Virus record (IMG/VR): IMGVR_UViG_2693429623_000012
Direction: 5' to 3' (one strand)
DNA from: a virus
Taxonomy: Duplodnaviria; Heunggongvirae; Uroviricota; Caudoviricetes
Length of the DNA: 28,812 nucleotides
Shown here: piece after piece, positions 1-14,687 of the stretch
Numbering within the stretch: position 1 is the stretch's first letter
Layout of the letters: each line of letters opens with the position of its first letter
Program-made: the position numbers and the translations under genes
The notes under the pieces: model-generated
Told to the model about the DNA's origin: nothing
The model's input: only the letters and a program-made list of their open reading frames with translations
Databases searched by the model: none

Positions 1-28
1 AAAGTGATCTACTATTCCGCGCAGCTAT

Positions 29-493
29 TTAGATTCGTCTCGCCTGCCAGAAATTTTTCTGCCAATAGACATTATCAAGTGAGGAACGCATCACTCCCTT
101 GCTGGTAGAGGCGTGGATAAATTGGTTGTTGGTATCGTAAATACCTACATGCAAACCATTTTGTCCGGAACCCGTTTTGAAAAAGACCAGGTCACCAGGC
201 AGCAACTCGTCTTTATCAATTTGCGTGCCGATAGAGGCTTGTTCTTTGGTTTCTCGGGGCAGCTGCAAATCGAAACGATCGCGCATCGTTACAACCACAA
301 ATCCCGAACAGTCCACACCGCGCCGCGTCATGCCACCATAACGATACGGCGTGCCATGCCAGCTTTGTAGCTGGTCGTTCAAACCGGCAATAACGGTAAT
401 CGAATCAGAAAGTCTGGCATTTGGCGGCGGTGCTTTATGGTGGCTACACCCGGCCAGAAACAGTGCTGTGATCAAAATAAGGCAGAAACGCAT
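29..493 (-). CDS. nlpC: NlpC/P60-family lipoprotein (154 aa); signal peptide with lipobox LAGC
   Basis: ORF track 29..493; N-terminus MRFCLILITALFLAGC is a typical lipoprotein signal; position next to btuD matches the E. coli nlpC-btuD-btuE-btuC arrangement (recalled). Confidence 0.85.
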   Translation of the reverse strand: MRFCLILITALFLAGCSHHKAPPPNARLSDSITVIAGLNDQLQSWHGTPYRYGGMTRRGVDCSGFVVVTMRDRFDLQLPRETKEQASIGTQIDKDELLPGDLVFFKTGSGQNGLHVGIYDTNNQFIHASTSKGVMRSSLDNVYWQKNFWQARRI

Positions 494-570
494 TCCGTAC
501 GGTTCCTCTGTTTTTTATTCTTGCATTAATTTAGCGTCGTAATTACCCGATTTTCAAGATACTAATGAAA

Positions 571-1320
571 TCAGATGGTCGAAATCAGCATTCTGTGACC
601 TTCGATATCCAGACGGCGAAAATTCATCCCATAGGCCTGCGCCAGATTTGGCGGCGTGAGCACCTCTTCTCTGCGTCCACTGGCCAGCATTTTTCCACCT
701 TTTAGCAACCACGCCCGATGCGCATGACGCAATGTGTGGTTGAGATCGTGACTGCTCATCACAATCGCCAGTCCTTGCTGACACAGAGCGCTCAGAATTT
801 TGTCTAACGCACTTTGTTGCGCAACATCAAGACTGTTCATCGGCTCATCAAGAAGCAGCAATTGGCCTGCGGGATTGGCTTGTGGTGTGATTTGCAGCAC
901 CACCGCAGCAAGACGTACGCGTTGCCATTCACCGCCGGAAAGTTGATTGGTGCTACGTCCGAGTTTGTCATCAAGAGCCAGCGCCCCTGCGACATCATTC
1001 AGTAGTTCGGTACGCGTTTTATCGTGCTGATGCAGTGTCAGATAGTGCCAGACCGGCATTGCAAACGGCGGCGTCTGCTGTTGTGAAAGATAGGCGCGAT
1101 GCAGCGCGAGTTTTGTTGCGGACCATGCTTCCAGTGGTTGCCCCGCGAACTGAATACTTCCCTTACCGCTGGTCATTCCGGCCATTCGTGCCAGTAAGGT
1201 ACTCTTACCCGCGCCATTCGGCCCCACCAGGTGCAGGATCTCCCCAGCCCGAACCTCGCCAGAAAGTGGCCCCAGGCGGGTAGATTCCGCAACATCCTGT
1301 AACTGCATCACAATAGACAT
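571..1320 (-). CDS. btuD: Vitamin B12 ABC transporter ATP-binding protein BtuD (249 aa)
   Basis: Walker [13 protein letters not shown] signature LSGGEWQR, Walker B LLLLDEP; sequence matches E. coli BtuD as recalled; start overlaps btuE stop at 1320. Confidence 0.95.
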
Positions 1321-1871
1321 TATTTTGCCAACGCCAGTTTAATGCTTTCCATCACAATGGGGTCTTCCGGCGTCATATCCGGGGAAAAACGCTGGATGAC
1401 CAATCCGTCCCTGCCAACTAAAAATTTCTCAAAATTCCATAAAATATCATCAGGGTACAGCGGTGCACGACCTTTGCTGACCATACGGGCATAGAATCCG
1501 CTCTCTTCCGGCGCGACTGCGGTCGGCGCTGCGGCAATCAATTTTTGATACAGCGGATGGCGTCCTTCGCCGTTAACTTCAATCTTACTGAACATCGGGA
1601 ACGTCACCCCCCATGTGGTGGTACAGTAAGTTTTAATCTCTTCATCGCTGCCCGGTTCTTGTTCCAGAAACTGGTTGCACGGGAATCCCAGCACCACAAA
1701 ACCTCGATCGGCCCAGGCTTTCTGAATATTCTCCAACTGCTCATATTGCGGCGTTAAGCCACACTTTGAGGCGACATTGACAATCAACAGCACATTACCG
1801 GCGTACTTCTCCAGCGTGGTCACTTCACCGTCGATATCTTTCACTACGGTCGTCAGAATGGAATCTTGCAT
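1320..1871 (-). CDS. btuE: Glutathione peroxidase-family protein BtuE (183 aa)
   Basis: Full-length ORF between btuC and btuD; glutathione peroxidase-like motifs ([14 protein letters not shown]); operon context. Confidence 0.95.
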
Positions 1872-1933
1872 CGTTTCTCCTGGGTGTGGTCAGTAAAAAT
1901 CTTAGCTTTTAATCATAGACCGTCTTTTTGCGG

Positions 1934-2914
1934 CTAACGTCCTGCTTTTAACAATAACCAGATAAACACCGGCGCACCCAACGTTGCGGTGACCACGCCA
2001 ATAGGCAGCTCTGCGGCAGCTAATGCCAGGCGCGCTACAATATCGGCCAGCAGCACTGCGCTCGCCCCTGCCAGCGCGCAGCCGGGAAGTAATACGCGAT
2101 GATCGGTTAAACCACACAACCGAAGAATATGTGGGATCACCAGACCAATAAAGCCGATAGCACCCGCCAGCGCCACACTGACGCCAACCATCCAGCCGGT
2201 CGCTGCCACCAGCACATTGCGCCAGAACCACAGGGGTAAACCCAGTTGCCGCGCCGAGATCTCGCCAAGTGCTAACATATTCATCGGCCTGGACTGACAA
2301 CAGATCCACAACAACACGGGGATCAATGCCAGCATCAGCCAGCTTTGCCGCCAGTCTACGCCGCCAAAACCGCCCATCATCCAGTACATCAGCTGACGTA
2401 AATCAACAGAGGTGGAAAAGTAGATAGCCCACGTCATTAGTGCGCTACAGATAATCCCTAATGCAACGCCAGCCAGCAATAACCGACTGGTCGAAAGATG
2501 ACGACGGGCGAAACGTAAGAGTATTAAAGTGATGATAAGCGCGCCAGCAATCGCACACAGCCCTAGCGCCCAGTTGGGGAGTTGCCCTTGCCCAAGCAAT
2601 ACCGCGGCGATAAGCCCCACGCCTGCGCCGTTAGAGACGCCAAGTAGTCCAGGTTCTGCCAGAGGATTTTCAAACAACGCCTGCATTACAGCGCCGGATA
2701 TAGCCAGCGCCGCACCAACCAGCAATACAGCCAGCGTACGTGGCAGGCGAATTTGCCAGACGAACAGTTCGCCACGAGGAGTAAACCAGTCACCTGGCGA
2801 AATCCATTGTTCACCGGCGCAAAGGCTTAAGAGAAGCGCCAGCAGCATCAAAACTGACAGGCATAATAACCAGCGAATATTTTGTCGCTGTTGTTGGCGG
2901 GCAAGTGTCAGCAT
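1934..2914 (-). CDS. btuC: Vitamin B12 ABC transporter permease BtuC (326 aa)
   Basis: Highly hydrophobic multi-TM protein; sequence matches E. coli BtuC as recalled ([17 protein letters not shown]...LLKAGR). Confidence 0.95.
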
Positions 2915-2969
2915 GGTATCCGTTCTGCTGAAGTGTCATGGCGTTGATTTTACGGTGACTCTTCGACAG

Positions 2970-2997
2970 TGAAAAGAAAAAAGGCCGCAGAGCGGCC
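2970..2997 (-). terminator. Intrinsic terminator for a minus-strand transcript: hairpin GGCCGCTCTGCGGCC followed by TTTTTTCTTTTC
   Basis: Plus strand reads gaaaagaaaaaa-ggccgcagagcggcc (2970-2997); on the minus strand this is a 6-bp GC stem with 3-nt loop followed by a T-run. Lies about 110 bp downstream of the cargo ORF stop and about 60 bp upstream of the btuC start. Confidence 0.6.
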
Positions 2998-3106
2998 ATA
3001 AACACAAACAAAAATCAATAAGTTAGGTAATTATCAAAGACTTACAGACACACAAAAACACAGCCAACCACAACAAATAACAGAGATGTGGTCAATTTGT
3101 GGATCA

Positions 3107-3544
3107 TCAGCCAACAAATTTAGCAACAAATACAGCAACCGCCGCTGTGAAAATGGTTGTGCACACTGGCACAATAATGCCACTCCAACGCCACTTCGTA
3201 TTATCATCAACCTTGTCAAACCGCCGATTCATCTCATCCATAATCTTGTCAAAGCGTTTATCCATCGCTTCGGTAAGCTCACCCTTCAGGCTGTTAATGT
3301 CTGATTTGAGCTGCTCTTTCAGGTTAGCTGTATCAGATTTAAGCTCACCTTTCAGATTCGCAATATCGCATTCAAGATCACCTTTCAGATGTGCTATGTC
3401 TGCTTTGAGTTCACCTTTCACCTCACCAACATCGGCTTTAGTTGAGAGGTTTGTAGTGCGTTCAGCAAGCGTCGCAAGGTCGTTTCTTGTTAGCGATAAA
3501 TCACCTTCGAGCCGCTCAATTCGCCTTTCAAGTTTATCTGACAT
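3107..3544 (-). CDS. Membrane-anchored coiled-coil protein with five 11-residue (hendecad) repeats and one C-terminal TM helix; unknown function (alternative upstream start at 3661 gives 184 aa)
   Basis: ORF track 3107..3661. An internal ATG at 3544 is preceded by GGAGG (4-nt spacer) and gives MSDKLERRIERLEG... Repeats like ADIAHLKGDLE / CDIANLKGELK / SDTANLKEQLK; C-terminal hydrophobic segment IIVPVCTTIFTAAVAVFVAKFV. Lower GC than the flanking host genes. Confidence 0.6.
   Translation of the reverse strand: MSDKLERRIERLEGDLSLTRNDLATLAERTTNLSTKADVGEVKGELKADIAHLKGDLECDIANLKGELKSDTANLKEQLKSDINSLKGELTEAMDKRFDKIMDEMNRRFDKVDDNTKWRWSGIIVPVCTTIFTAAVAVFVAKFVG
3277..3441. repeat. Five imperfect tandem 33-bp repeats inside the coiled-coil cargo gene
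   Basis: Units start at 3277, 3310, 3343, 3376, 3409, for example gctcacctttcagattcgcaatatcgcattcaa and gatcacctttcagatgtgctatgtctgctttga; in frame, each encodes one 11-aa repeat. Confidence 0.85.
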
Positions 3545-3644
3545 TCCGCCTCCACTACTGCCGCCATCGCCACCATGATAAAGCACATCACGCTCAGAAT
3601 GCGACACACTACCTGCTGAATTACCGAAAAGATTTCTTGCTACA

Positions 3645-4178
3645 TTACCCATTATCACCATCCTGCGCTTTGTCTTTCTCCAACCACTTCAGCACCGCAG
3701 ACGTACGATAAAGGCTCAGGTAACCACAATTCAGGCAATGCAGCGTGTAATAAGTTTTGCGCATATCAGGTATGCTCTTAACATCACCCAAAAAAGCATA
3801 AGATACATAATGCTTTATGTTCTCTTTAATTAACTCACTCTGTTCCTCCAGGGGTAGATTGTTAAAATTTTCTGGTTTCTTATTTTTATCCCAGCAAAGA
3901 TCCATACTTTCTGGAACAGATAATCGCGACGATCCACATGAAGGGCAGACACTGGAGACCCCCTTCTCAGACAAGAAACGGAAGAAGATTTCTGGCGTAA
4001 TCTCCATCAGCCGCTCTTTATGTTTTNNNNNNNNNNNNNNNNNNNNNNNNNNNNNNNNNNNNNNNNNNNNNNNCGACTTCTTATTGATTTCATCAGCTTC
4101 TTCTTTGCATTTATCTTCTATATATTTCGATAGTAAATAGTCATATAACTCTTTTTTTGTAGGTTTTTTTATTTCCAT
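3645..4178 (-). CDS. Lys-rich protein with two CxxC pairs (CPSCG ... CLNCG), a putative zinc ribbon; unknown function; interrupted by an assembly gap so true length is uncertain
   Basis: ORF track 3645..4178 (16 X residues from the N run). Start ATG at 4178 lies 2 nt after the int stop (TAA at 4183-4181, minus strand) and is preceded by GGGAGGA inside the int 3' end. AT-rich (roughly 40% GC by eye). Confidence 0.55.
   Translation of the reverse strand: MEIKKPTKKELYDYLLSKYIEDKCKEEADEINKKSXXXXXXXXXXXXXXXXKHKERLMEITPEIFFRFLSEKGVSSVCPSCGSSRLSVPESMDLCWDKNKKPENFNNLPLEEQSELIKENIKHYVSYAFLGDVKSIPDMRKTYYTLHCLNCGYLSLYRTSAVLKWLEKDKAQDGDNG
4027..4073. other. Assembly gap (47 N)
   Basis: Run of n characters; not biological sequence. 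Confidence 0.99.
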
Positions 4179-4180
4179 AG

Positions 4181-5158
4181 TTACATTCCTCCCAAGGGAT
4201 TAAACCTCACCGCATCCTGCAAGTAATCCGGCGCAAGATGGGCATAAATCATCGTTGTCTGAATCTTTGCGTGCCCCAGAATTTTCTGGAGCGTCAGAAT
4301 ATTGCCGCCGTTCATCATGAAATGACTGGCGAAGGTGTGGCGCAGCGCATGAACAGCCTGGCCGTCAGGAACATCAGGTGCGACCGTTTTGATGACATCG
4401 CGAACCAATGAATAATCCAGCGTCGGAAACACCAGTTTCCCGCCCCGTTTTTTGATCTTTTCAAACAGGCTTTCAGAAATAGGAACGGTACGGTTTTTGC
4501 TGTTCTTCGTTTTTGAAAAAGTGATTCGACAATGAAGAACACGGCGCTGCTCCAGTGCCGCTACCTCGCCCCATCGCGCCCCGGTCGACAGAAGGATTTC
4601 GACGGCCAGCCGTTCATCGGGATTTTCAGCCAGTGCATCCAGCAACTGAACACATTCAGACTTACTCAGATATCCCATTTCACGCTCGTTAACCTTCATT
4701 CCTTTAAGGCCTTGAACGGGGTTATCGTTAAGAAAATGGCCGGATGAGATGAGTGCGGTAAACATCGCGCTTAACGCCCCAATCTCTCGATTTATGGTGC
4801 TGGGCTGTATCCCCTGCTCTATCCTGGACACACGTAGCTCGGTGAGCATCGTTGTATTAAGTTTATGCACGCACGGGTCATCCATTGCCTCACTCAAGCG
4901 CAGCAATTTAAGGCGCGTGTTATGCCCTGACTTCATTAGCTGGCCGTGGTATTTCCACCACAAGTCAATAAGCACTGACAGCGGACGGCGATCAATGGAG
5001 TTTCCTTTCCACTCATTGTTATGCTGTTGCGCCAGCACCCACCGCTCATATAAAACTGCATCCGATTTCGTTTTAAATTTTTTGCGAATGCGTTTGCCTT
5101 TACGCCCCTCAGGACGCATGTCAAGAAGATACCCTCCCGGAATTGATTTTATGCTCAT
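4181..5158 (-). CDS. int: Tyrosine site-specific integrase, P2 Int-like (about 325 aa)
   Basis: ORF track 4181..5308. Start moved to the ATG at 5158 (MSIKSIPGGYLLDMRPEGRKGKRIRKKF...), which aligns with the P2 Int N-terminus (MAIKKLDDGRYEVDIRPTGRNGKRIRRKF, recalled). C-terminal catalytic region HALRHTFASHFMMNGGNILTLQKILGHAKIQTTMIYAHLAPDYL carries the conserved R..H-x-x-R..Y motifs. Confidence 0.9.
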   Translation of the reverse strand: MSIKSIPGGYLLDMRPEGRKGKRIRKKFKTKSDAVLYERWVLAQQHNNEWKGNSIDRRPLSVLIDLWWKYHGQLMKSGHNTRLKLLRLSEAMDDPCVHKLNTTMLTELRVSRIEQGIQPSTINREIGALSAMFTALISSGHFLNDNPVQGLKGMKVNEREMGYLSKSECVQLLDALAENPDERLAVEILLSTGARWGEVAALEQRRVLHCRITFSKTKNSKNRTVPISESLFEKIKKRGGKLVFPTLDYSLVRDVIKTVAPDVPDGQAVHALRHTFASHFMMNGGNILTLQKILGHAKIQTTMIYAHLAPDYLQDAVRFNPLGGM

Positions 5159-5207
5159 TCGTGAAGCCCCAGCGTTACAAGACCACCATGCCCCCAGCGT
5201 TCCATGA

Positions 5208-5519
5208 TTAGCCGGGCTGTGTGCCAGTCTTGCGGGATTTTTGAGAAGACGATGTGTTTTCTGGCCCATCAGGGGAGAGAGAAGGACTGATCTGCCCAGC
5301 AGCCTCATTTGTTTCGTTACTCATCAACCACGTAGTGTATTTTTTAAATTCCGGGTGCATTGTGATTTTCAGTAAAACCTCCGTTCCCACACCTCGAATA
5401 CCAGTCTCGTATTGCTTAACCGTACCAACCGCAATACCTATTGAATCCGCGAACTTTGCCTGACTAAGCCCCTCAGATTCTCGAATTGCTTTTAGCTTCT
5501 TTGATATCTCTATTGACAT
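5208..5519 (-). CDS. Immunity repressor, P2 C-like (about 104 aa)
   Basis: ORF track 5208..5621; start moved to the ATG at 5519 (MSIEISKKLKAIRESEGLSQAKFADSIGIAVGTVKQYETG..., HTH). C-terminal part ...EFKKYTTWLMSNETNEAAGQISPSL... resembles P2 C (...QFTKYTLWFMTNQIAPESGQIAPAL..., recalled). Divergent from the cox-like gene, upstream of int. Confidence 0.8.
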   Translation of the reverse strand: MSIEISKKLKAIRESEGLSQAKFADSIGIAVGTVKQYETGIRGVGTEVLLKITMHPEFKKYTTWLMSNETNEAAGQISPSLSPDGPENTSSSQKSRKTGTQPG

Positions 5520-5614
5520 GGTGTGCACCTGAATACTATATTGGTTATCAGTTGAGTACCACTTGACGCTACAAAGAGCCACAAATAGCACCAGATTGAA
5601 TAGGTTATCACACC
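5520..5614. promoter_or_regulatory. Divergent lysogenic/early promoter-operator region between C and the cox-like gene
   Basis: 95-bp gap between divergently transcribed C (minus) and cox-like (plus) genes. Contains a direct repeat of GGTTATCA (5543-5550 and 5603-5610) with similar flanks (tattGGTTATCAg / aataGGTTATCAc) and a TTGACG hexamer at 5563-5568. Confidence 0.5.
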
Positions 5615-5893
5615 ATGGCAAAAGTCCTTAACACATACGAACAAGCGGATTTTGAGCGTTTGGCGGCGTTCTACCCATACCGTAATGAACATGGGCTACC
5701 GGTACTTGAAGAAAGCCTAGAGGATTATGCGAAACGCACAAATCAAAGCATTCTCGCTGTAAGAAGGCAGGCTGATAGATCGGTAATTCCCGTTACTCAA
5801 GAAGGAAGAAACACAAAACGCAAAGTAAATCTCTTCGCAATTTTCCTGAAAACCATCAGAAACGCAGAGAAATACGTGCAGATGACAAAATAA
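5615..5893 (+). CDS. Cox-like small early-operon protein (92 aa); assignment is positional
   Basis: First gene of the rightward early operon, divergent from C, about P2 Cox size (91 aa). I could not confirm sequence similarity to P2 Cox by eye. Confidence 0.5.
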   Translation: MAKVLNTYEQADFERLAAFYPYRNEHGLPVLEESLEDYAKRTNQSILAVRRQADRSVIPVTQEGRNTKRKVNLFAIFLKTIRNAEKYVQMTK

Positions 5894-7953: not shown

Positions 7954-10776
7954 ATGACGGCAGAGTACATCAGGGACTGGCAACAACCGCGCCACGCAGT
8001 GGGGCGTGAAGGAACGGGGATCCCCGCTCCTGAATCCGCGCTTTCCTCCTGGCTGGATGCCCACCGGGCAGAGAACGAGCGCCGCCAGGAAATGGCTGAT
8101 GCGGCGTTCTCCGCCACGCCACTGGGCAACCTGATTAATAAAAGCCTGGACGCACAGGAAAAACAGGACAAAACCATCACACTGGCAGGAGACGCCAGAA
8201 AACAGGCACGCGGCGCGGTGGATGAAGCCATGGCCTCGCTGCGCCTGCTGCCGTCCTATCTGCGCGATCCGCTTATTCGCCACCTCTCCTTCCTGCGCAA
8301 AAAACAGGAAGCCGATCGCCGGAAAGGCAAAAAGAGCTGGCAGGCGGAACGCTATGCACGCGGAACCCTGCGCAAAATATTCGAACGTCTGGATCGCACT
8401 GACGGACACTGGCTGACACCGGGTTATCGCTCCCTTGCCGGACGTGAACGCCTGGACGATTTGCTTTACCTGCCGCAACTCAACAAACACCAGATACAGA
8501 CGCTGGCCACCATGACGGCGGCGATGTTCAGCAGCACCTTCGAAAAACTCTGCGATGGTTTTGGCGCGACTGATGGCGAGCTGACCATGGATGTAACGCT
8601 GAAGGCGTATCAGATGCTGGCCCGCATGGCGTTACACTTACACGCCATGCCTCCGCATTATGACGCACTGACAACAGACAAAGACCGGAGGCACGAACCG
8701 GACACAGAACTGCTGCCGGGCGCAATCCTTCGCCTGACCTGTGCGGAATGGTGGAAACGCAAACTGTGGCTGTTACGTTGCGAGTGGAGAGAAGAACAAC
8801 TTCGCGCCGCCTGTCTGGTTTCCAGAAAAACATCGCCCTATCTGAGCCAGGACGCGTTAAGCGAGTTTCGCGCACAGCGCGAGAAAACACGCGATTTCCT
8901 GAAAAGTTTCATGCTGGAAAATGAAGACGGGTTCACGATTGATCTCGAGACGGTGTATTACGCGGGAGTAAGTAACCCGGTTCACCGTAAGGCAGAAATG
9001 ATGGCCACCATGAAGGGGCTGGAACTTCTGGCCGAAGCCCGTGGCGACAAAGCGGTGTTTCTGACTGTCACCTGCCCGTCAAAATACCACGCCACAACGG
9101 AGAACGGTCATCCGAATCCCAAATGGAACGGGGCCACAATGCGCGACTCCAGCGATTACCTGGTTAACACGTTTTTTGCGACGGTCCGCAAAAAACTGAA
9201 CCGCGACGGCCTGCGCTGGTATGGCATCCGCACGGCGGAGCCTCACCATGACGGCACCGTGCACTGGCATATGATGGTCTTTGCTCATCCGGAAGAAATC
9301 GACACCATTGTGTCCCACACCCGCGATATTGCCATTCAGGAAGATCGTCACGAGCTGGGCGATGACATAACTCCGCGCTTTAAGGCGGAGTATGTAGACG
9401 GCTCAAAAGGCACGCCAACCAGCTACATCGCCACCTACATCGGGAAAAACCTGGACAGCCGCGCCGTGGATGGCATCGACCCGAAAACGGGCAAGCCACG
9501 CGTTGACCACGAAACCGGAAAATCAATGGCCGAGAGCGTGGAACGCGCCATCGGCTGGGCGCGCCTTCACCGGGTCCGCCAGTTCCAGTTCTTTGGCATC
9601 CCCTCCCGCCAGGTATGGCGTGAACTGCGCCGCCTTGCCAGCCAGATGGCACGCAACCCGGAAGGCCCGCAACGGCTGAAGGATGACGCAATGGATGCGG
9701 TTCTTGCCGCCGCTGATGCCGGATGTTTTGCCACCTACATAGAGAAACAGGGCGGCGTACTTGTTCCACGCAAAGACTACCTGATTCGCACCGCCTACGA
9801 CCTCGCCGATGAGCTGAACGATTACGGCGAACAGAGCGTACAGATTTACGGGATCTGGTCACCACTCATCGGGGAATCCTCCCGTGTGTGCACGCATCCG
9901 GATAACTGGAAGCTGGTAAGACGCAAACCGGAAGCGGAAGACAGCGCCCGCGAAAATGGTTTTGACCTTCAGGGCGGCCCTGCCGCCCCTTGGACTCGTG
10001 GCAATAACTGTCCCCGTGTACAGGAAACGGACAACAACGGGACAGAACAGCCGGAAGAACGGCCAGCACCGTGGCCGCAGCTCCCTGACGGCGTTGATGT
10101 GGATGAATGGATGCGCTCACTGAAACGGCACGAACGCCGGGCGCTGATGCGTTCGCTTCGTGACAAACAGGCAAAAAACAGCAGTGATGAAATGCAGAGC
10201 TGGACACAGAGCCGCAAACAGCAGCGGCCTTTGCCTGATAACCACGAATTACTCGCTAAAGAATGGCGGGAGTCTGCTGAATCTCTCGGCCTGCATATCG
10301 GTGAACAACAGATGCAGCACCTGTTACGGGGCGGCAGTCTGTACGTTGACGGCAGCATCATTGCACCGCAGGGATTTGAAATTGTACGCAAACCGGATAC
10401 CCGCCCGGACAGCCGAATCACGCAGCTCTGGCAGCGCCTGAGCCGTAATCATGGCGTAAGCAGCACGGAGATCCGCCATAACCCGGTCGCCAGCTATCTG
10501 ACACAGCTGGGGGCATCAGACCCTGAAGCCGCCGCACGCCTGGCATCCACACTTCAGCAGGACCAGAACACCATGAAAACACCCGTTACCGTGCTTTCTG
10601 ACATGCTGCGCGCCATCCGCGACGCAGAGCACGCACAGAGAATCAGTGAAACCACTGAACGCGCCCGCCGCAAAGCAGACCTGCTGCGGGGTGGCCTGAC
10701 CAGTGGAAACAAAAAACAGACAGAAACGGGACTCACGAATCCCGTAAATGAGCAAAAAACGCGCAGCGATATATGA
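7954..10776 (+). CDS. A: Rolling-circle replication initiation endonuclease, P2 gpA family (940 aa, long C-terminal extension)
   Basis: HUH motif HWHMMVF encoded at 9262-9282 (residues 437-443) and paired catalytic tyrosines Y-x3-Y (SYIATYIGKN, 9421-9450, residues 491 and 495), as in P2 A; position after the early ORFs matches P2. Confidence 0.9.
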   Translation: MTAEYIRDWQQPRHAVGREGTGIPAPESALSSWLDAHRAENERRQEMADAAFSATPLGNLINKSLDAQEKQDKTITLAGDARKQARGAVDEAMASLRLLPSYLRDPLIRHLSFLRKKQEADRRKGKKSWQAERYARGTLRKIFERLDRTDGHWLTPGYRSLAGRERLDDLLYLPQLNKHQIQTLATMTAAMFSSTFEKLCDGFGATDGELTMDVTLKAYQMLARMALHLHAMPPHYDALTTDKDRRHEPDTELLPGAILRLTCAEWWKRKLWLLRCEWREEQLRAACLVSRKTSPYLSQDALSEFRAQREKTRDFLKSFMLENEDGFTIDLETVYYAGVSNPVHRKAEMMATMKGLELLAEARGDKAVFLTVTCPSKYHATTENGHPNPKWNGATMRDSSDYLVNTFFATVRKKLNRDGLRWYGIRTAEPHHDGTVHWHMMVFAHPEEIDTIVSHTRDIAIQEDRHELGDDITPRFKAEYVDGSKGTPTSYIATYIGKNLDSRAVDGIDPKTGKPRVDHETGKSMAESVERAIGWARLHRVRQFQFFGIPSRQVWRELRRLASQMARNPEGPQRLKDDAMDAVLAAADAGCFATYIEKQGGVLVPRKDYLIRTAYDLADELNDYGEQSVQIYGIWSPLIGESSRVCTHPDNWKLVRRKPEAEDSARENGFDLQGGPAAPWTRGNNCPRVQETDNNGTEQPEERPAPWPQLPDGVDVDEWMRSLKRHERRALMRSLRDKQAKNSSDEMQSWTQSRKQQRPLPDNHELLAKEWRESAESLGLHIGEQQMQHLLRGGSLYVDGSIIAPQGFEIVRKPDTRPDSRITQLWQRLSRNHGVSSTEIRHNPVASYLTQLGASDPEAAARLASTLQQDQNTMKTPVTVLSDMLRAIRDAEHAQRISETTERARRKADLLRGGLTSGNKKQTETGLTNPVNEQKTRSDI

Positions 10777-10821
10777 AGCGCGCACAAAACAGGCAAAAAC
10801 GGGATTTCAGAATCCCGTAAA
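10724..10821. repeat. Two copies of a 25-bp element AAACGGGAyTyAsGAATCCCGTAAA, each an inverted repeat (ACGGGA/TCCCGT); candidate parC-like centromere, operator or replication signal
   Basis: Copy 1 at 10724-10748 (inside the A 3' end), copy 2 at 10797-10821 (intergenic), 73 bp apart, just upstream of the ParM-like gene. Confidence 0.5.
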
Positions 10822-10852
10822 CGATTAATTAATCAACATAAGGAAAAGCGAC

Positions 10853-11812
10853 ATGAAAATTTGTATCGACGACGGCTCCACCAACATCAAGCTGGCATGG
10901 ACTGAGAACGGCGAACGCCGCAACGCCATCAGCCCGAACAGCTTCAAGTCGGAATGGTCTGCGCCGTTCGGTGGCATGCAGCCCGCGAACTACATGCTTG
11001 ATGGCGTGCGCTATGGTTTTGATCCGGTCAGCGATCGCTTTGTCCAGACAACCGACACGCAATACCAGTACAGCGATGTAAATGTCATTGCCATTCATCA
11101 CGCGCTGGTCAAATCAGGCATCACGCCACAGGAGGTGGATGTGGTTGTCACCCTGCCACTGAGCGAGTATTTCGACACAAACGCACAGCCGGACATGGCC
11201 AACATCAACCGCAAAAAAGCGAACGTTATGCGCCCGGTGGAGTACCAGAACGGCGAAGCATTCACTATCCGTAACGTGCGGGTTATGCCTGAATCCATTC
11301 CGGCTGGCTTTAAGGCACTGGCTGACATGAGTCCGTTTGAATCCCTGCTGATTGTGGATTTGGGCGGAACCACGCTGGATGTGGCAAAGGTTCAGGGGCA
11401 ACTGGCAGGTATCAGCCAGGTGTTTTGCGATCCACACGTAGGCGTTTCTCTGATGGCCGATGCCGTACTGTCGGTGATGGCCACTAACGGTATGCGCACC
11501 AGTCACCACATCGCCAATACCATTATCGAACATCGCCATGATGAAGCCTGGCTGCGCCAGCACATCCACAATGACGCGCATTACGCCAGCCTGATGGCGG
11601 TTATTCGTGAAAAGGAAGAAACACTGAAACAACGCGTGATCCGCGCGCTGGCGGGTTTTTCGGGTTACGGGCGGGTGATGGTTGTCGGTGGAGGGGCGGA
11701 GATTGTGGCACCCGCTATCCGCGAAGCCTGCGGAGTTAATGCGACTTTCATCGCGGACGGGGTGCCACAGTTTGCTCTGGTTAATGGGCTGTACGCAATG
11801 GACAAGGAGTAA
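10853..11812 (+). CDS. Actin-like segregation ATPase, ParM/StbA family (319 aa)
   Basis: N-terminus MKICIDDGSTNIKLAW...ISPNSFKSEW...YSDVNVIAIHHAL closely parallels plasmid R1 ParM (MLVFIDDGSTNIKLQW...ISPNSFKREW...YSDVNVVAVHHAL, recalled); AAGGAAAAG upstream. Confidence 0.85.
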   Translation: MKICIDDGSTNIKLAWTENGERRNAISPNSFKSEWSAPFGGMQPANYMLDGVRYGFDPVSDRFVQTTDTQYQYSDVNVIAIHHALVKSGITPQEVDVVVTLPLSEYFDTNAQPDMANINRKKANVMRPVEYQNGEAFTIRNVRVMPESIPAGFKALADMSPFESLLIVDLGGTTLDVAKVQGQLAGISQVFCDPHVGVSLMADAVLSVMATNGMRTSHHIANTIIEHRHDEAWLRQHIHNDAHYASLMAVIREKEETLKQRVIRALAGFSGYGRVMVVGGGAEIVAPAIREACGVNATFIADGVPQFALVNGLYAMDKE

Positions 11813-11816
11813 ACCA

Positions 11817-12128
11817 ATGACGACACCAACCAGACGGATAAGTTTCTATCTGAAGCCTGCGGCCGTCAAGAACGAAAGCGAAGCATGCGCCTGGCTGGGC
11901 AGCCTTACACCAGAAGCCCGCAAAAGCGGCCAACGCGTGGCTTTTCTGGCCGGGCTGGCACTTCTGAAAATGAATCCAGCAGAGGCTTACCGACTGGCTG
12001 CATGGGCTGACGATGAGGCGTTATCGGTGACACAAACCAGGACAGAACGCCCCGTGCCACAGCCAGTACCAACCGCACAGATAACCAGTCAGATAGCAGG
12101 GAATATCCGGGCATTATTTCCTGAATGA
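11817..12128 (+). CDS. Putative ParR-like partition adaptor (103 aa)
   Basis: In-frame ATG 5 nt after the parM-like stop. Weak but collinear resemblance to R1 ParR: RRISFYLKP vs RRTIAFKLNP, AGLAL core, C-terminal IRALFPE vs ILRSLFPKE (recalled). Confidence 0.55.
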   Translation: MTTPTRRISFYLKPAAVKNESEACAWLGSLTPEARKSGQRVAFLAGLALLKMNPAEAYRLAAWADDEALSVTQTRTERPVPQPVPTAQITSQIAGNIRALFPE

Positions 12129-12188
12129 CGAATTTGACGGCTTTTAATTTTATCGGGGTGCACTGTCGCCCCGCACGAGGAAAACACG

Positions 12189-12713
12189 ATGAAAAAATAC
12201 GAATACATGCTAATGAAAGAAGCACTGCGGGCTGGTCTGGCTCCCTGTCCTGTATCCGTAGAAGCTGTTGTTGGGAACACGATTTTCCGAACGCTGCGAA
12301 ATCGCGTATCCGTGAAGATGGTTCACCAACCACCCAAATCTACCAGCATGATCTATCTGCCGCTGCCCGAGGCTATCAAACTTATGCGTTCGCTGAAATT
12401 TGCGATTTGGATGCAGACACAAATCAACAAAGCGGTGCAAAACACCTTCGTTAAGAGACTAATACCGGAGCTTGCTGCCAGATGTGCAAAATGTACCAGA
12501 CCCGCACTTCAATTTGATCTGTCATTGATTCAACAAGCTACGGAGGCAGAACTGTACCGCCTGTCACCTATCCGTGATGCTCACACGGAAGCATCAGAAA
12601 TGTTCCGGCTCATGTTTCAATTTAATTTTGCCGTTCGACGCACACGCGTTCAGGTCAATCGCATGATGCAGGAGCAGGAAGAGTTAACACAGTACAAAGG
12701 GGGCAGCCAGTGA
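12189..12713 (+). CDS. Hypothetical protein (174 aa), accessory-locus cargo
   Basis: ORF track 12189..12713; GAGGA upstream; no recognisable motif. Confidence 0.5.
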   Translation: MKKYEYMLMKEALRAGLAPCPVSVEAVVGNTIFRTLRNRVSVKMVHQPPKSTSMIYLPLPEAIKLMRSLKFAIWMQTQINKAVQNTFVKRLIPELAARCAKCTRPALQFDLSLIQQATEAELYRLSPIRDAHTEASEMFRLMFQFNFAVRRTRVQVNRMMQEQEELTQYKGGSQ

Positions 12714-12949
12714 GTAATTCAGCACGACTACAGCTTGGTTTTTCACCGCTATCAAAAACCATCGTATTGGCAAAAATGCGTGACTTAGGAGACGGAACAA
12801 AACGCCGCGTAGGAAATGATCGCGGTCGCGATGTAACCAACGAGGCCGCTCAACTCGTTTGGCATCTAGTCATGGCAGAAGGCGGTGAAATTAATTGGGA
12901 GCTGGATGATGGTTCTCGTATGATTTTGAGGGCCGAGAAGAGTAAATAG
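12710..12949 (+). CDS. Hypothetical protein (79 aa), accessory-locus cargo
   Basis: ORF track 12710..12949; start overlaps the upstream stop (ATGA). Confidence 0.45.
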   Translation: MSNSARLQLGFSPLSKTIVLAKMRDLGDGTKRRVGNDRGRDVTNEAAQLVWHLVMAEGGEINWELDDGSRMILRAEKSK

Positions 12950-12963
12950 CTCAAGGGGGATTA

Positions 12964-13149
12964 ATGCTAAATGATGATGAAGAAGAGCTGCTTATGCAGG
13001 AATGGTCGCTCGGTGATTATGATAATGGTGAAAATGGGTGCCCGCATTGTGGCCGTTATCGTTTATGTATCTGCCAGAATGGAAAACACAGATGTGAAAA
13101 GTGCAATTGGTCTCCGGAACTTAATGACTACGTGCCGATCGAGTGGTAG
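12964..13149 (+). CDS. Small Cys-rich putative zinc-binding protein (61 aa)
   Basis: ORF track 12964..13149; CPHCGRYRLCICQNGKHRCEKCNW has at least two CxxC pairs. Confidence 0.45.
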   Translation: MLNDDEEELLMQEWSLGDYDNGENGCPHCGRYRLCICQNGKHRCEKCNWSPELNDYVPIEW

Positions 13150-13640: not shown

Positions 13641-14687
13641 TCAGGATGTGGGCTGGGTGTCTAACAGTGCGTAAGGGTTAAAGCGGATCACCTCTTCGCC
13701 AAGCCAGTCATTGATGTGCTTCATGGCCTCCATGACGGGCATCAGCTCGTTAATTGCGTAAACCCGCGCGGCCTTCTCCACATCACCAAACGCACTTTTT
13801 TCGCCCGGCATCGCCCCCATCAGTTGCGGCGGAACGCGGTGCGCAGCCAGCACATCATCACGGGATGCCGCCTTAACATTCATGAACTCATCCTTTGCGG
13901 TGATCTGCTGGAACGGCAAAATTTGCACCCCCTCTTTGCCCCCGTTGGGCGCATGAATGAGCACGTTTTTAAACGCACCACCACCACGTGCCCCCTGTAG
14001 CGTTTCTTTCAGGGAGTCCATGCTTTCGCGGTTTACCTGCGCTGCACCGATGTAGATGATGCACCCGGCGTGGGATCCGTTGTCGTAGTACAGTTTTCTG
14101 AACATGTCCGCCGAATGAGAAAGGCTGGCCGAGAGTAATGCGCCAAGATATTCCGGCATGCCGTAGATTTCCTGGTTAATATCCGGATTCATCAGGTGGC
14201 ACACTTTGCCAGGACGAAACTGAAACGCATCCTTGCCATCCTGCACATACCACCATGATTCAAGATCGCTTCCGCGTCGCATGTATTTCGCCAGGGCGTG
14301 CCGTAATTTAAGCGGTTCGCCGAGCATATTGCTCCGAAGCTCAAGGAATGCGTTACCGAACACAAACCAGTCCAGCGCCAGCGCCGAGAAATCCTGCCGG
14401 GAAAGCAGCGGGTGCGGAATATAGCAGCCGAGCAATACATTGCGCTTAAAGTAAAGCGCAGACTGATGCCAGGACGTTTGCCGGGCAGCTCTTGCCAGAC
14501 CGTACCAGTCCACCGGGGTTTCATACCACCGCCCGTTATCAGCACAGTACATATTGTCCAGCAGGTCATGCCCGGTCAGGCGGTAAGGACCATCAAATGT
14601 GAATGCACTGAGCGACGATTCTTTCCTGAGCGCATCAGCGAGATCAATGCGTGAACTCATGCGCACTTTTTTATTTTTTCTGCTCAT
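13641..14687 (-). CDS. Q: Portal protein, P2 gpQ-like (348 aa)
   Basis: ORF track 13641..14687; size and position match P2 Q (last gene of the leftward P-Q operon); start codon overlaps the P stop. Confidence 0.85.
   Translation of the reverse strand: MSRKNKKVRMSSRIDLADALRKESSLSAFTFDGPYRLTGHDLLDNMYCADNGRWYETPVDWYGLARAARQTSWHQSALYFKRNVLLGCYIPHPLLSRQDFSALALDWFVFGNAFLELRSNMLGEPLKLRHALAKYMRRGSDLESWWYVQDGKDAFQFRPGKVCHLMNPDINQEIYGMPEYLGALLSASLSHSADMFRKLYYDNGSHAGCIIYIGAAQVNRESMDSLKETLQGARGGGAFKNVLIHAPNGGKEGVQILPFQQITAKDEFMNVKAASRDDVLAAHRVPPQLMGAMPGEKSAFGDVEKAARVYAINELMPVMEAMKHINDWLGEEVIRFNPYALLDTQPTS

What the first reader, a model, noticed from the sequence alone, without database searches (positions are those of the whole stretch)
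10724..10821. Paired palindromic 25-bp elements straddling the A stop codon, upstream of the ParM-like gene
AAACGGGACTCACGAATCCCGTAAA (10724-10748) and AAACGGGATTTCAGAATCCCGTAAA (10797-10821) are direct repeats, and each is itself an inverted repeat (ACGGGA...TCCCGT). They sit where a parC centromere and autoregulated promoter would be expected for a ParMR cassette. Because copy 1 lies inside the A coding sequence, they could instead relate to the replication origin, which in P2 lies within gene A.
Basis: partly seen in the sequence, partly recalled or inferred. Interest (0 to 1): 0.5.

Follow-up and report, generated by a model that had tools for sequence, protein, structure and literature searches.

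The report
Likely partition centromere boxes upstream of parM
Two matching 20-bp palindromes just upstream of a phage-borne actin-like DNA-segregation operon are most likely the docking sites (centromere) for its adaptor protein ParR, not the phage replication origin; this is an ordinary kind of element in an unusual two-box layout.

Summary
ACGGGA-N8-TCCCGT occurs exactly twice in 28.8 kb (10726-10745, 10799-10818), 73 bp apart. Each copy sits in a 42-nt direct repeat (10710-10751, 10783-10824) either side of the gene A stop codon and upstream of parM (10853) and parR (11817).

The window is an integrated P88-like (Xuanwuvirus, P2-family) prophage.

Best reading (confidence 0.6): the boxes are ParR-binding sites of a compact parC centromere.
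- **Conserved geometry.** Four lineages of P2-like prophages (ParM down to 62% identity) keep two GGG-N10-CCC elements 72-73 bp apart at the same distance from the parM ATG. Meanwhile the inner sequence, the hairpin potential and the upstream ORF all change.
- **DNA shape.** The region has the strongest 10-11 bp A-tract phasing in the window.
- **Proteins.** ParM and ParR are clear R1/pB171 homologues.

The origin alternative is not supported. The P2 nick-site sequence aligns to 9974-10011, about 735 bp upstream. The "autoregulated promoter" part is also unsupported: no sigma-70 consensus promoter was found, although the same scan finds the R1 par promoter in a control.

ParR binding is inferred, not shown. 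I rate this a new member of a known kind, of modest interest.

The parts
10726..10745 (.). Box 1: 20-bp palindrome ACGGGACTCACGAATCCCGT (core GGG-N10-CCC), inside the last codons of gene A
   Evidence: The GG/CC centre is invariant in 57 distinct P88-group variants. The GGG-N10-CCC geometry is kept in L092, L099 and L100.
10799..10818 (.). Box 2: 20-bp palindrome ACGGGATTTCAGAATCCCGT, 34 bp upstream of the parM ATG
10710..10751 (+). Repeat unit 1 (42 nt): A-rich arm CAAAAAACAGACAGAA plus box 1
   Evidence: Direct-repeat family D1, 81% identity, spacing 73.
10783..10824 (+). Repeat unit 2 (42 nt): A-rich arm CACAAAACAGGCAAAA plus box 2. The arm motif CAGGCAAAAACGGGA is also kept in the Serratia-type cassettes.
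10752..10782 (.). Spacer between the units. It holds a short GC-rich inverted repeat (CGCGC 10760-10764 / GCGCG 10778-10782), the conserved CGATATA, and the gene A stop codon (10774-10776). No consensus promoter.
10661..10870 (+). A-tract-phased, strongly A-skewed DNA that embeds both boxes (predicted intrinsic curvature)
   Evidence: Eight of the ten highest 10-11 bp AA-periodicity scores among 2,868 windows start at 10661-10731. The highest AT skew (0.58-0.60) within the stretch profiled, 9800-12400, is here.
10853..11812 (+). parM, actin-like segregation ATPase (319 aa); RBS AGGAA at 10841-10845
   Evidence: Pfam StbA_N 2.7e-82 and ParM C-terminal domain 1.3e-68. R1 ParM structure 1MWK, E 8.5e-93 over residues 2-316.
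11817..12128 (+). parR, adaptor protein (103 aa). It has an N-terminal PTRRISFYLKP strand plus helices, a hypervariable linker and a conserved NIRALFPE tail.
   Evidence: Pfam Plasmid_stab_B 5e-23. PHROG partition protein 2.3e-56. Profile vs pB171 ParR 2JD3, E 0.0018. 32% identity to R1-type ParR, E 3e-7. Variation pattern.
7954..10776 (+). Gene A, P2-type replication endonuclease (940 aa); its 3' end runs over box 1
   Evidence: Pfam Phage_GPA 6.6e-131. 30% identity to P2 A, E 2e-77.
9974..10011 (+). Predicted origin nick region (homologue of the P2 ori; nick expected near 9991/9992). Listed here to show that it is separate from the boxes.
   Evidence: P2 nick annotation, sequence, alignment. 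It is one of only two DNA-level matches between P2 A and this A.
5513..5542 (+). Strong sigma-70-like promoter (TTGACA-18-TATATT) at the head of the + strand early operon that runs through A, parM and parR. It is the likely source of parMR transcription.
   Evidence: Gene order and strand. Integrase and HTH repressor lie divergently upstream.

Best explanation
The two palindromes are the ParR-binding boxes of a compact parC centromere. This centromere belongs to a type II (ParM/ParR) partition cassette carried by a P88-like, P2-family prophage.

Inferred mechanism:
1. ParR dimers have a ribbon-helix-helix N-terminus with an invariant RRISFYLKP strand. They bind the inverted CGGGA(T)/(A)TCCCG half-sites, probably two dimers per 20-bp box.
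2. The boxes are 73 bp apart (about 7 helical turns), so they lie on the same face of an intrinsically curved, A-tract-phased segment of about 150 bp.
3. The bound ParR presents its conserved C-terminal tails (NIRALFPE) to the ends of ParM filaments, which push ParR-bound phage DNA circles apart.

Transcription of parMR most likely comes by read-through from the early operon (promoter at 5513-5542), not from a ParR-repressed promoter between the boxes. The system would then act after infection or induction rather than in the repressed, integrated prophage.

Shown: the anatomy, the conservation, and the protein homologies.
Inferred: ParR binding, stoichiometry, transcription source and timing.
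For: 1. **Position.** The boxes lie directly upstream of parM-parR, on the same strand as the cassette.
2. **Conserved geometry with diverging sequence.** Two GGG-N10-CCC elements lie at these distances from the parM ATG:
   - -125/-52 in the window
   - -124/-51 in L092 (ParR 74% identical)
   - -131/-59 in L099 (Plesiomonas, ParM 63%)
   - -128/-55 in L100 (Hafnia, ParM 62%)

   The background is 0.038 such elements per 220 bp.
3. **The boxes travel with parM, not with gene A.** The upstream ORF ends after box 1 (window, L099), inside box 1 (L092) or before the elements (L101), or is a different 167-aa ORF (L100). In L092 the A 3' end has diverged while the segment from about 10705 to parM stays about 85% identical.
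4. **The hairpin is not what is conserved.** There are 0 two-sided changes in 16 stem pairs across 57 distinct variants. The stems are reduced to 3-4 bp in L099 and L100.
5. **DNA shape.** The region ranks first in the window for 10-11 bp A-tract periodicity. R1 parC is described as strongly curved (PMC2241845).
6. **ParR.** The DNA-binding part of ParR is invariant across alleles that are otherwise only 52% identical, and those alleles sit next to the same boxes. ParR matches pB171 and R1 ParR.
7. **Precedents.** pB171 ParR binds just two repeats (PMC9426499). A ParR-bound parC made of palindromic repeats has been reported in C. botulinum (PMC12270681).
Against: - There are no binding data of any kind.
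- A 2022 paper states that all ParR proteins characterised to that date bind direct repeats (PMC9426499). Here the half-sites are inverted and there are only two boxes, against ten iterons in R1.
- The half-site centres are 13 bp apart, not a whole helical turn.
- The Serratia/Enterobacter cassettes (ParM 54-58%) use a different layout, one long inverted repeat. The two-box design is therefore not universal.
- No covariation between ParR allele and box variant could be seen.
- No recognisable promoter lies between or after the boxes, unlike R1.
- One natural variant (L182) has lost one 73-bp unit while the sequence read through the parM start is unchanged.
- The AlphaFold monomer model of ParR was of low confidence (pLDDT 62) and did not itself show the ribbon strand.
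Confidence: 0.6

Rival explanations
1. The palindromes act as RNA (or single-stranded DNA) hairpins in the A-parM transcript. They could be an intercistronic mRNA stabiliser or a processing site that uncouples A and parM expression.
For: Both copies fold as 6-8 bp hairpins on the + strand (-9.0 and -10.7 kcal/mol, z -2.8 and -3.7). The commonest arm changes in copy 2 (A to G at 10799, C to T at 10816) keep G-U pairing on the + strand.
Against: There is no compensatory (two-sided) change in 16 pairs over 57 variants. Several one-sided changes break pairing, for example C-A at 10732/10739 in 14 variants. In L099 and L100 the stem shrinks to 3-4 bp with a 10-nt loop while the GGG-N10-CCC geometry and the 72-73 bp spacing persist. 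No U-run follows on the + strand, so they are not terminators there.
Confidence: 0.1
2. They are intrinsic terminators for the minus strand. They would stop antisense or late-operon read-through from entering gene A.
For: On the minus strand each stem is followed by a T-rich run, and both score as terminator-like.
Against: No minus-strand gene lies upstream of them until the portal gene at 13641-14687. A terminator for that operon would be expected there. The terminator-like form is absent in L099 and L100, although the boxes are kept. Two copies 73 bp apart, at a fixed distance from parM, are not explained.
Confidence: 0.06
3. They are binding sites for a protein other than ParR. Candidates are an auxiliary element of the A-dependent origin, a phage regulator or a host nucleoid protein.
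For: Copy 1 lies inside gene A, and the P2 origin lies inside A. Palindromes suit many dimeric DNA-binding proteins. No promoter or ParR-binding data tie them to ParR.
Against: The P2 nick-site homologue is at 9974-10011. It is one of only two DNA-level matches between the two A genes, and it is identical in L092. No exact match to GGGA-N8-TCCC is reported for the P2 stretch held (L098: the 3' end of B, gene A, orf91, tin, old; P2 lacks parMR). In L100 the boxes keep their distance to parM although a different ORF, not A, lies upstream.
Confidence: 0.12
4. They are a functionless duplication: a 73-bp tandem-like repeat left by recombination at the cassette junction.
For: The two units are direct repeats that can recombine. 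One natural single-unit variant exists (L182).
Against: Two units are kept in nearly all of the 173 loci examined and in four lineages whose other non-coding sequence has diverged. The GG/CC cores are invariant while the centres vary.
Confidence: 0.05

Closest known systems
parC of plasmid R1 (ParMRC, type II partition; Dam & Gerdes 1994; PMC2241845)
   Same: It lies immediately upstream of parM-parR. The proteins are homologous (ParM E 8.5e-93 to 1MWK; ParR 32% identity, E 3e-7). The repeats form two groups separated by a spacer. The top strand is A/C-rich with CCC-plus-A-tract motifs, and the DNA is curved or A-tract-phased.
   Different: R1 has ten 11-bp direct iterons (5 + 5) flanking a clear promoter within a 39-bp spacer. 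The scan tool finds that promoter, TTGACT-16-TAAACT, in an R1-type control. Here there are two 20-bp palindromes with inverted half-sites, 53 bp between the palindromes, and no recognisable promoter. The element sits in an integrated phage and overlaps the end of a replication gene.
parC1 of plasmid pB171 par1 (ParR structure 2JD3)
   Same: The ParR profile matches pB171 ParR (E 0.0018, residues 9-73). pB171 ParR is reported to bind only two repeats upstream of parM (PMC9426499), so a two-site centromere has a precedent.
   Different: The pB171 repeats are 10-bp direct repeats, whereas here they are 20-bp palindromes 73 bp apart. The P88-type ParR lacks the roughly 25-residue segment (..TTISQIRHLISSVLP..) that the other ParRs share.
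Chromosomal Cb-cParCMR of Clostridium botulinum (PMC12270681)
   Same: Its parC is made of palindromic repeats and was shown by EMSA to bind its ParR. The ParMR system is encoded on a chromosome rather than a plasmid.
   Different: It has three palindromic repeats, the proteins are unrelated in sequence to the level tested here, and it is from a Gram-positive host. That paper makes no mention of phage or prophage.
AlpAC/alpS of Corynebacterium prophage CGP3 (PMC5539076)
   Same: It is a prophage-encoded actin-like filament with a DNA-binding adaptor and specific DNA sites, implicated in phage DNA transport and replication (abstract seen). This is a functional analogy for why a phage would carry such a system.
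   Different: The actin-like family and the adaptor are different, and the adaptor is not a ParR homologue by any test run here. The comparison rests on the abstract only.

Membership tests
Type II (ParMRC) partition locus: parC centromere | Lies next to (typically upstream of) a parM-parR operon | tested here: met
   The boxes are at 10726-10818, parM at 10853-11812 and parR at 11817-12128, all on the + strand.
Type II (ParMRC) partition locus: parC centromere | The cassette encodes an actin-like ParM ATPase | tested here: met
   Pfam StbA_N 2.7e-82 and ParM C-terminal domain 1.3e-68. R1 ParM 1MWK, E 8.5e-93, full length.
Type II (ParMRC) partition locus: parC centromere | The cassette encodes a ribbon-helix-helix ParR adaptor with a ParM-binding C-terminal tail | tested here: met
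   By sequence: Pfam PF10784 5e-23, pB171 ParR 2JD3 E 0.0018, R1-type ParR E 3e-7. The N-x-x-x-L-F-P tail is shared with plasmid ParRs. By structure the result is inconclusive: AF2 monomer pLDDT 62 with helices 20-29, 32-52, 54-61 and 86-100, and the N-terminal strand not modelled. Foldseek gave no hit.
Type II (ParMRC) partition locus: parC centromere | Consists of repeated sequence motifs | tested here: met
   Two 42-nt direct repeats, each with a 20-bp palindrome. The number (2) and the symmetry (inverted half-sites) differ from R1 (10 direct iterons).
Type II (ParMRC) partition locus: parC centromere | Repeats are conserved with the cassette in relatives | tested here: met
   GGG-N10-CCC occurs twice, at 72-73 bp spacing, in four lineages. 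Both positions are kept across most of the P88-like loci, and most loci listed with one match carry the CCT variant of box 2.
Type II (ParMRC) partition locus: parC centromere | Repeats overlap or flank the par promoter, which ParR represses (as in R1) | tested here: not met
   No sigma-70 consensus promoter at 10500-11000 or in L099, L100 or L106. The control finds the R1-type promoter. Weak or non-consensus promoters are not excluded, and autoregulation itself cannot be tested here.
Type II (ParMRC) partition locus: parC centromere | Intrinsically curved DNA (described for R1 parC) | tested here: met
   This is a proxy only. The AA-dinucleotide periodicity at 10-11 bp is the highest of 2,868 windows. 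No curvature model or gel assay was run.
Type II (ParMRC) partition locus: parC centromere | ParR binds the repeats specifically and cooperatively | not testable with these tools
   Needs EMSA, footprinting or ChIP.
Type II (ParMRC) partition locus: parC centromere | Stabilises an unstable replicon in cis and exerts incompatibility in trans | not testable with these tools
   Needs plasmid-loss assays.
P2-type origin of replication (A-protein nick site) | Contains the sequence that A nicks (homologous to P2 GCGCCTCGGAGTCCTGTCAATAAC) | tested here: not met
   The homologue is at 9974-10011 (30 of 38 identical to P2). Nothing similar lies at 10724-10821.
Intrinsic (rho-independent) terminator | GC-rich stem followed by a U-run on the transcribed strand, downstream of a gene on that strand | tested here: not met
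   On the + strand the stems are followed by AAA, not a U-run. On the - strand the form is present, but there is no upstream gene on that strand, and the form is not conserved in L099 or L100.

The most novel reading that the evidence does not exclude
P2-family prophages, present in about a quarter of complete E. coli genomes, carry an intact, minimal two-box ParMRC centromere. It would be silent while the phage is integrated. After infection or induction it would actively move or segregate phage DNA circles. That would allow a transient or stable plasmid-like (episomal) state, or spatial organisation of replicating genomes. A 'plasmid' partition machine would then be repurposed as part of a temperate-phage life cycle.
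Probability: 0.25. Interest if true: 0.65.

Novelty: new member of a known kind. Interest (0 to 1): 0.38.

Why it matters
The parM and parR genes of P88-like phages are annotated in public records. The searches I ran found no description of their centromere. Defining the boxes gives a concrete, mutable target of about 115 bp for a simple question: what does a plasmid-partition machine do in an integrating P2-family phage? The cassette is in 1,321 of 5,426 complete E. coli genomes, almost always on the chromosome, and the carriers include O157:H7 EDL933 and an O127:H6 strain. The layout also adds a two-palindrome design to the known range of ParR sites, most of which are direct repeats.

Tried and rejected
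1. **Wrong spacer.** My first motif search used a 7-nt spacer and found nothing. Corrected to 8 nt.
2. **Close relatives only.**
   - The genome, viral and metagenome scans seeded with ParM returned almost only 98-100% identical P88-like copies or plasmid types.
   - They therefore added little depth.
   - The useful intermediate lineages came from protein-homologue look-ups.
3. **ParR structure.** The AlphaFold2 monomer model was of low confidence (pLDDT 62). Foldseek against the PDB gave only noise. Single-sequence phmmer of ParR against PDB sequences found nothing, and only the profile reached pB171 ParR.
4. **Covariation.** I looked for covariation between ParR allele classes and box variants and found none.
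5. **Promoter.** I looked for a promoter between or after the boxes by eye and by scan and found nothing convincing.
6. **Per-position variability.**
   - Within the P88 group this is only descriptive.
   - The arms are not clearly less variable than the flanks at this shallow divergence.
   - Only the GG/CC cores and the variable centres stand out.
7. **Third GGGA-N8-TCCC hit.** A third hit in some loci (for example L003 6444-6459) is not flanked by the A-tracts that adjoin the boxes. I judged it to be chance.
8. **Ogr-type late promoter, IHF site.** I considered an Ogr-type late promoter (TGT-N12-ACA) and an IHF site by eye. Neither fits.
9. **Literature.** Searches for P88, Xuanwuvirus or P2-like ParM centromeres found nothing relevant.
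Full report
**1. The observation**

Each holds a 20-bp palindrome, ACGGGA-N8-TCCCGT (10726-10745 and 10799-10818).

- This exact pattern occurs nowhere else in the 28,812-base window. Allowing two mismatches adds a single weak hit, at the level shuffles give.
- The repeat is longer than reported. It is 42 nt (10710-10751 vs 10783-10824, 81% identical, 73 bp start to start), and an A-rich arm precedes each palindrome.
- The long ORF 7954-10776 stops at 10774-10776, between the copies. parM starts at 10853.

**2. Context**

- ORF 7954-10776 is a P2-type replication endonuclease (Pfam Phage_GPA 6.6e-131; 30% identical to P2 A).
- ORF 10853-11812 is ParM (Pfam 2.7e-82 and 1.3e-68; R1 ParM structure 1MWK, E 8.5e-93 over the full length).
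- ORF 11817-12128 is a 103-residue ParR-type adaptor:
  - Pfam Plasmid_stab_B 5e-23.
  - PHROG 'partition protein' 2.3e-56.
  - Profile match to pB171 ParR 2JD3, E 0.0018.
  - 32% identity to an R1-type ParR, E 3e-7.
- The DNA is 95-98% identical to Escherichia phage P88 and other Xuanwuvirus (Peduoviridae) records, in which parM and the partition protein are annotated.
- The window holds an integrated prophage. ABC-transporter (FecCD/ABC_tran) genes, probably host, lie at about 570-2914. An integrase is at 4181-5308 (-) and an HTH repressor at 5208-5621 (-). A long + strand early operon begins behind a strong promoter at 5513-5542.
- The cassette is common. It is found in 1,321 of 5,426 complete E. 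coli genomes, at 1,473 chromosomal places against 2 on plasmids.

**3. Is it the origin?**

P2's annotated nick site (29892) lies in codon ~620 of A. Its surrounding DNA, GCGGCATCGCCGCGCCTCGGAGTCCTGTCAATAACTGT, aligns to window 9974-10011, GCGGCCCTGCCGCCCCTTGGACTCGTGGCAATAACTGT. The window sequence is identical in a Hafnia-like relative.

A sensitive blastn of the two A genes finds only two DNA-level matches: the catalytic-motif region and this one. The predicted nick is therefore near 9991/9992, about 735 bp upstream of box 1. Nothing resembling it lies at the palindromes.

**4. Do the boxes belong to gene A or to the par cassette?**

I recovered more distant P2-like prophages that carry parMR in the same slot, after A and before the portal gene:
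- L092/L091 (ParR 74% identical)
- L099, Plesiomonas (ParM 63%)
- L100, Hafnia (ParM 62%)
- L101/L104 Serratia, plus L102, L105 and L106 (ParM 54-58%)

Two GGG-N10-CCC elements lie at these distances from the parM ATG:

| Locus | Box positions | Spacing |
|---|---|---|
| window | -125 / -52 | 73 |
| L092 | -124 / -51 | 73 |
| L099 | -131 / -59 | 72 |
| L100 | -128 / -55 | 73 |

The background frequency of this pattern in the window is 0.038 per 220 bp.

What lies upstream varies:
- In the window and L099, gene A ends just after box 1.
- In L092 the A stop codon sits in the centre of box 1.
- In L100 a separate 167-aa ORF covers the region.
- In L101, A ends before the elements.

In L092 the A 3' end has diverged, while the stretch from about 10705 to parM stays about 85% identical. 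The boxes are therefore positioned relative to parM. Their overlap with A is incidental.

**5. Double-stranded protein site or hairpin?**

In the window each box can form a modest hairpin (-9.0 and -10.7 kcal/mol). On the minus strand each resembles a terminator.

Three results argue against a hairpin function:
- In L099 the elements are GGGACAACAAAAACCC and GGGACAACACTAACCC. In L100 they are GGGATTGAGGAAACCC and GGGTTCATTAAATCCC. Only the outer triplets remain complementary, and the predicted stems drop to 3-4 bp.
- Neither L099 nor L100 scores as terminator-like.
- Among 57 distinct P88-group variants, none of the 16 stem pairs shows a two-sided change. All changes are one-sided and some break pairing. 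The central GG/CC positions are invariant and the 4-nt centres are the most variable.

What is conserved is the spacing of short inverted motifs on duplex DNA. This is the pattern expected for a symmetric DNA-binding protein.

**6. Why ParR?**

- **Invariant DNA-binding part.**
  - ParR alleles in this phage group differ greatly. Some are only 52% identical overall and have a hypervariable linker at residues ~65-95.
  - All keep the N-terminal strand PTRRISFYLKP, the helix QR.AFLAGLAL and the tail NI(R/Q)ALFPE.
  - The divergent alleles sit beside the same boxes.
- **Shared features.** Strand, helix and tail motifs are shared with R1-type and other plasmid ParRs.
- **Strand and layout change together.** Lineages with TRR(I/V)SFYL have the two-box layout. 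Those with NRKISFYL have a long inverted repeat instead (GGGAACGATATAGAAAAAT, 26-28 nt, ATTTTTCTGTTTCGTTCCC). Its left flank, CAGGCAAAAACGGGA, is homologous to the arm of box 2.
- **DNA shape.**
  - The surrounding ~200 bp has the strongest 10-11 bp AA periodicity in the window. Eight of the top ten of 2,868 windows fall here.
  - Its top strand is strongly A-rich: 57 A to 16 T in 130 nt.
  - An R1-type parC fetched for comparison has an A/C-rich top strand with CCC-plus-A-tract iterons. R1 parC is described as strongly curved (PMC2241845).
- **Precedents.**
  - pB171 ParR binds only two repeats (PMC9426499).
  - A ParR-bound parC made of palindromic repeats has been reported (PMC12270681).

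**7. What does not fit the R1 model**

- R1 has ten direct 11-bp iterons around a promoter. The scan tool finds that promoter in an R1-type control.
- The same scan finds no consensus promoter upstream of parM in the window or in L099, L100 or L106.
- All genes from 5615 to parR lie on the + strand, with short gaps and no convincing + strand terminator. I therefore infer that parMR is read from the early promoter at 5513-5542. It would then be silent in the repressed lysogen.
- The P88-type ParR also lacks a ~25-residue segment conserved in other ParRs. This may bear on higher-order assembly, but that is speculation.
- One natural variant (L182) has lost exactly one 73-bp unit.

**8. Verdict**

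The most likely identity is a compact, two-box parC centromere for a phage-borne ParMR system (confidence 0.6).
- ParR binding, stoichiometry and timing are inferred.
- The origin reading is rejected on sequence evidence.
- The autoregulated-promoter part is unsupported.
- The rivals rate lower for the reasons given: + strand RNA hairpins, minus-strand terminators, a site for another protein, and a neutral duplication.

The element is a new member of a known kind. The broader open question is why an integrating P2-family phage in a quarter of E. coli genomes keeps a plasmid-partition machine. That question is the more interesting one, and these boxes make it testable.

Noticed in passing
window 9974-10011: Predicted replication-origin nick region of this phage. 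It is 30/38 identical to the annotated P2 ori nick site and identical in a Hafnia-like relative. It is one of only two DNA-level matches between the P2 and P88-type A genes.
   Followed up: yes
window 11817-12128 and ParR of L006-L085: ParR is mosaic. The N-terminal ~60 residues and the last 8 are conserved, while residues ~65-95 are hypervariable. Two allele classes (..TPEARKSGQRV.. and ..PASERSRAQRA..), 52% identical overall, lie next to near-identical parM and boxes. The recombination breakpoint is about 55 nt into parR.
   Followed up: partly
L182 1440-1475 (IMGVR_UViG_2657245439_000011): A natural variant has a single hybrid palindrome. Exactly one 73-bp repeat unit has been deleted, and the sequence from there through the parM start is unchanged.
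   Followed up: partly
L088 (NZ_CP148288.1, 34,461-bp circular record in PLSDB): A record of about phage-genome size (34,461 bp), carrying gene A, parM, parR and a terminase gene, is deposited as a circular, non-mobilizable E. coli plasmid. This hints at an episomal form or an assembled excised circle. In complete E. coli genomes the cassette is at 1,473 chromosomal places against 2 on plasmids.
   Followed up: partly
window 12125-13149: ORFs downstream of parR (109, 174, 79 and 61 aa). The first two match no Pfam or PHROG family. In relatives the parR-to-portal interval holds other genes (HicAB in L101, a KAP NTPase in L102, an Rrf2 regulator in L090). It looks like a cargo hotspot.
   Followed up: no
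window 10826-10845; L092, L099, L100 at the same place: The motif ATTAATCAA(A/C)..ATAAGG, just upstream of the parM ribosome-binding site, is kept (one position differs in L092) in all four two-box lineages. Its function is unknown. It is not a consensus -10 element.
   Followed up: no
L101, L102, L105, L106, upstream of parM: The Serratia/Enterobacter-type phage cassettes replace the two boxes with one long inverted repeat (arms up to 20 nt, 26-28 nt apart) around a short GC-rich palindrome. This may be an alternative centromere design in the same gene slot.
   Followed up: partly
window 10760-10764 / 10778-10782: A short GC-rich inverted repeat (CGCGC / GCGCG) lies between the boxes and spans the gene A stop codon. 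The Serratia-type spacers have a comparable GC-rich mini-palindrome, but it is only weakly conserved in L092.
   Followed up: no
window 1-5621: The left part of the window is not matched by P88-like phage records. ABC-transporter genes (FecCD family 1934-2914, ABC ATPase 571-1320) are followed by unassigned ORFs (3107-4178), then the integrase (4181-5308) and repressor (5208-5621). The attachment site was not located.
   Followed up: no
window 11817-12128 vs other ParRs (alignment A5): The P88-type ParR (103 aa) lacks the conserved ~25-residue segment (..TTISQIRHLISSVLP..) found in R1-type, IncF/IncK-plasmid-type and the other phage ParRs.
   Followed up: no
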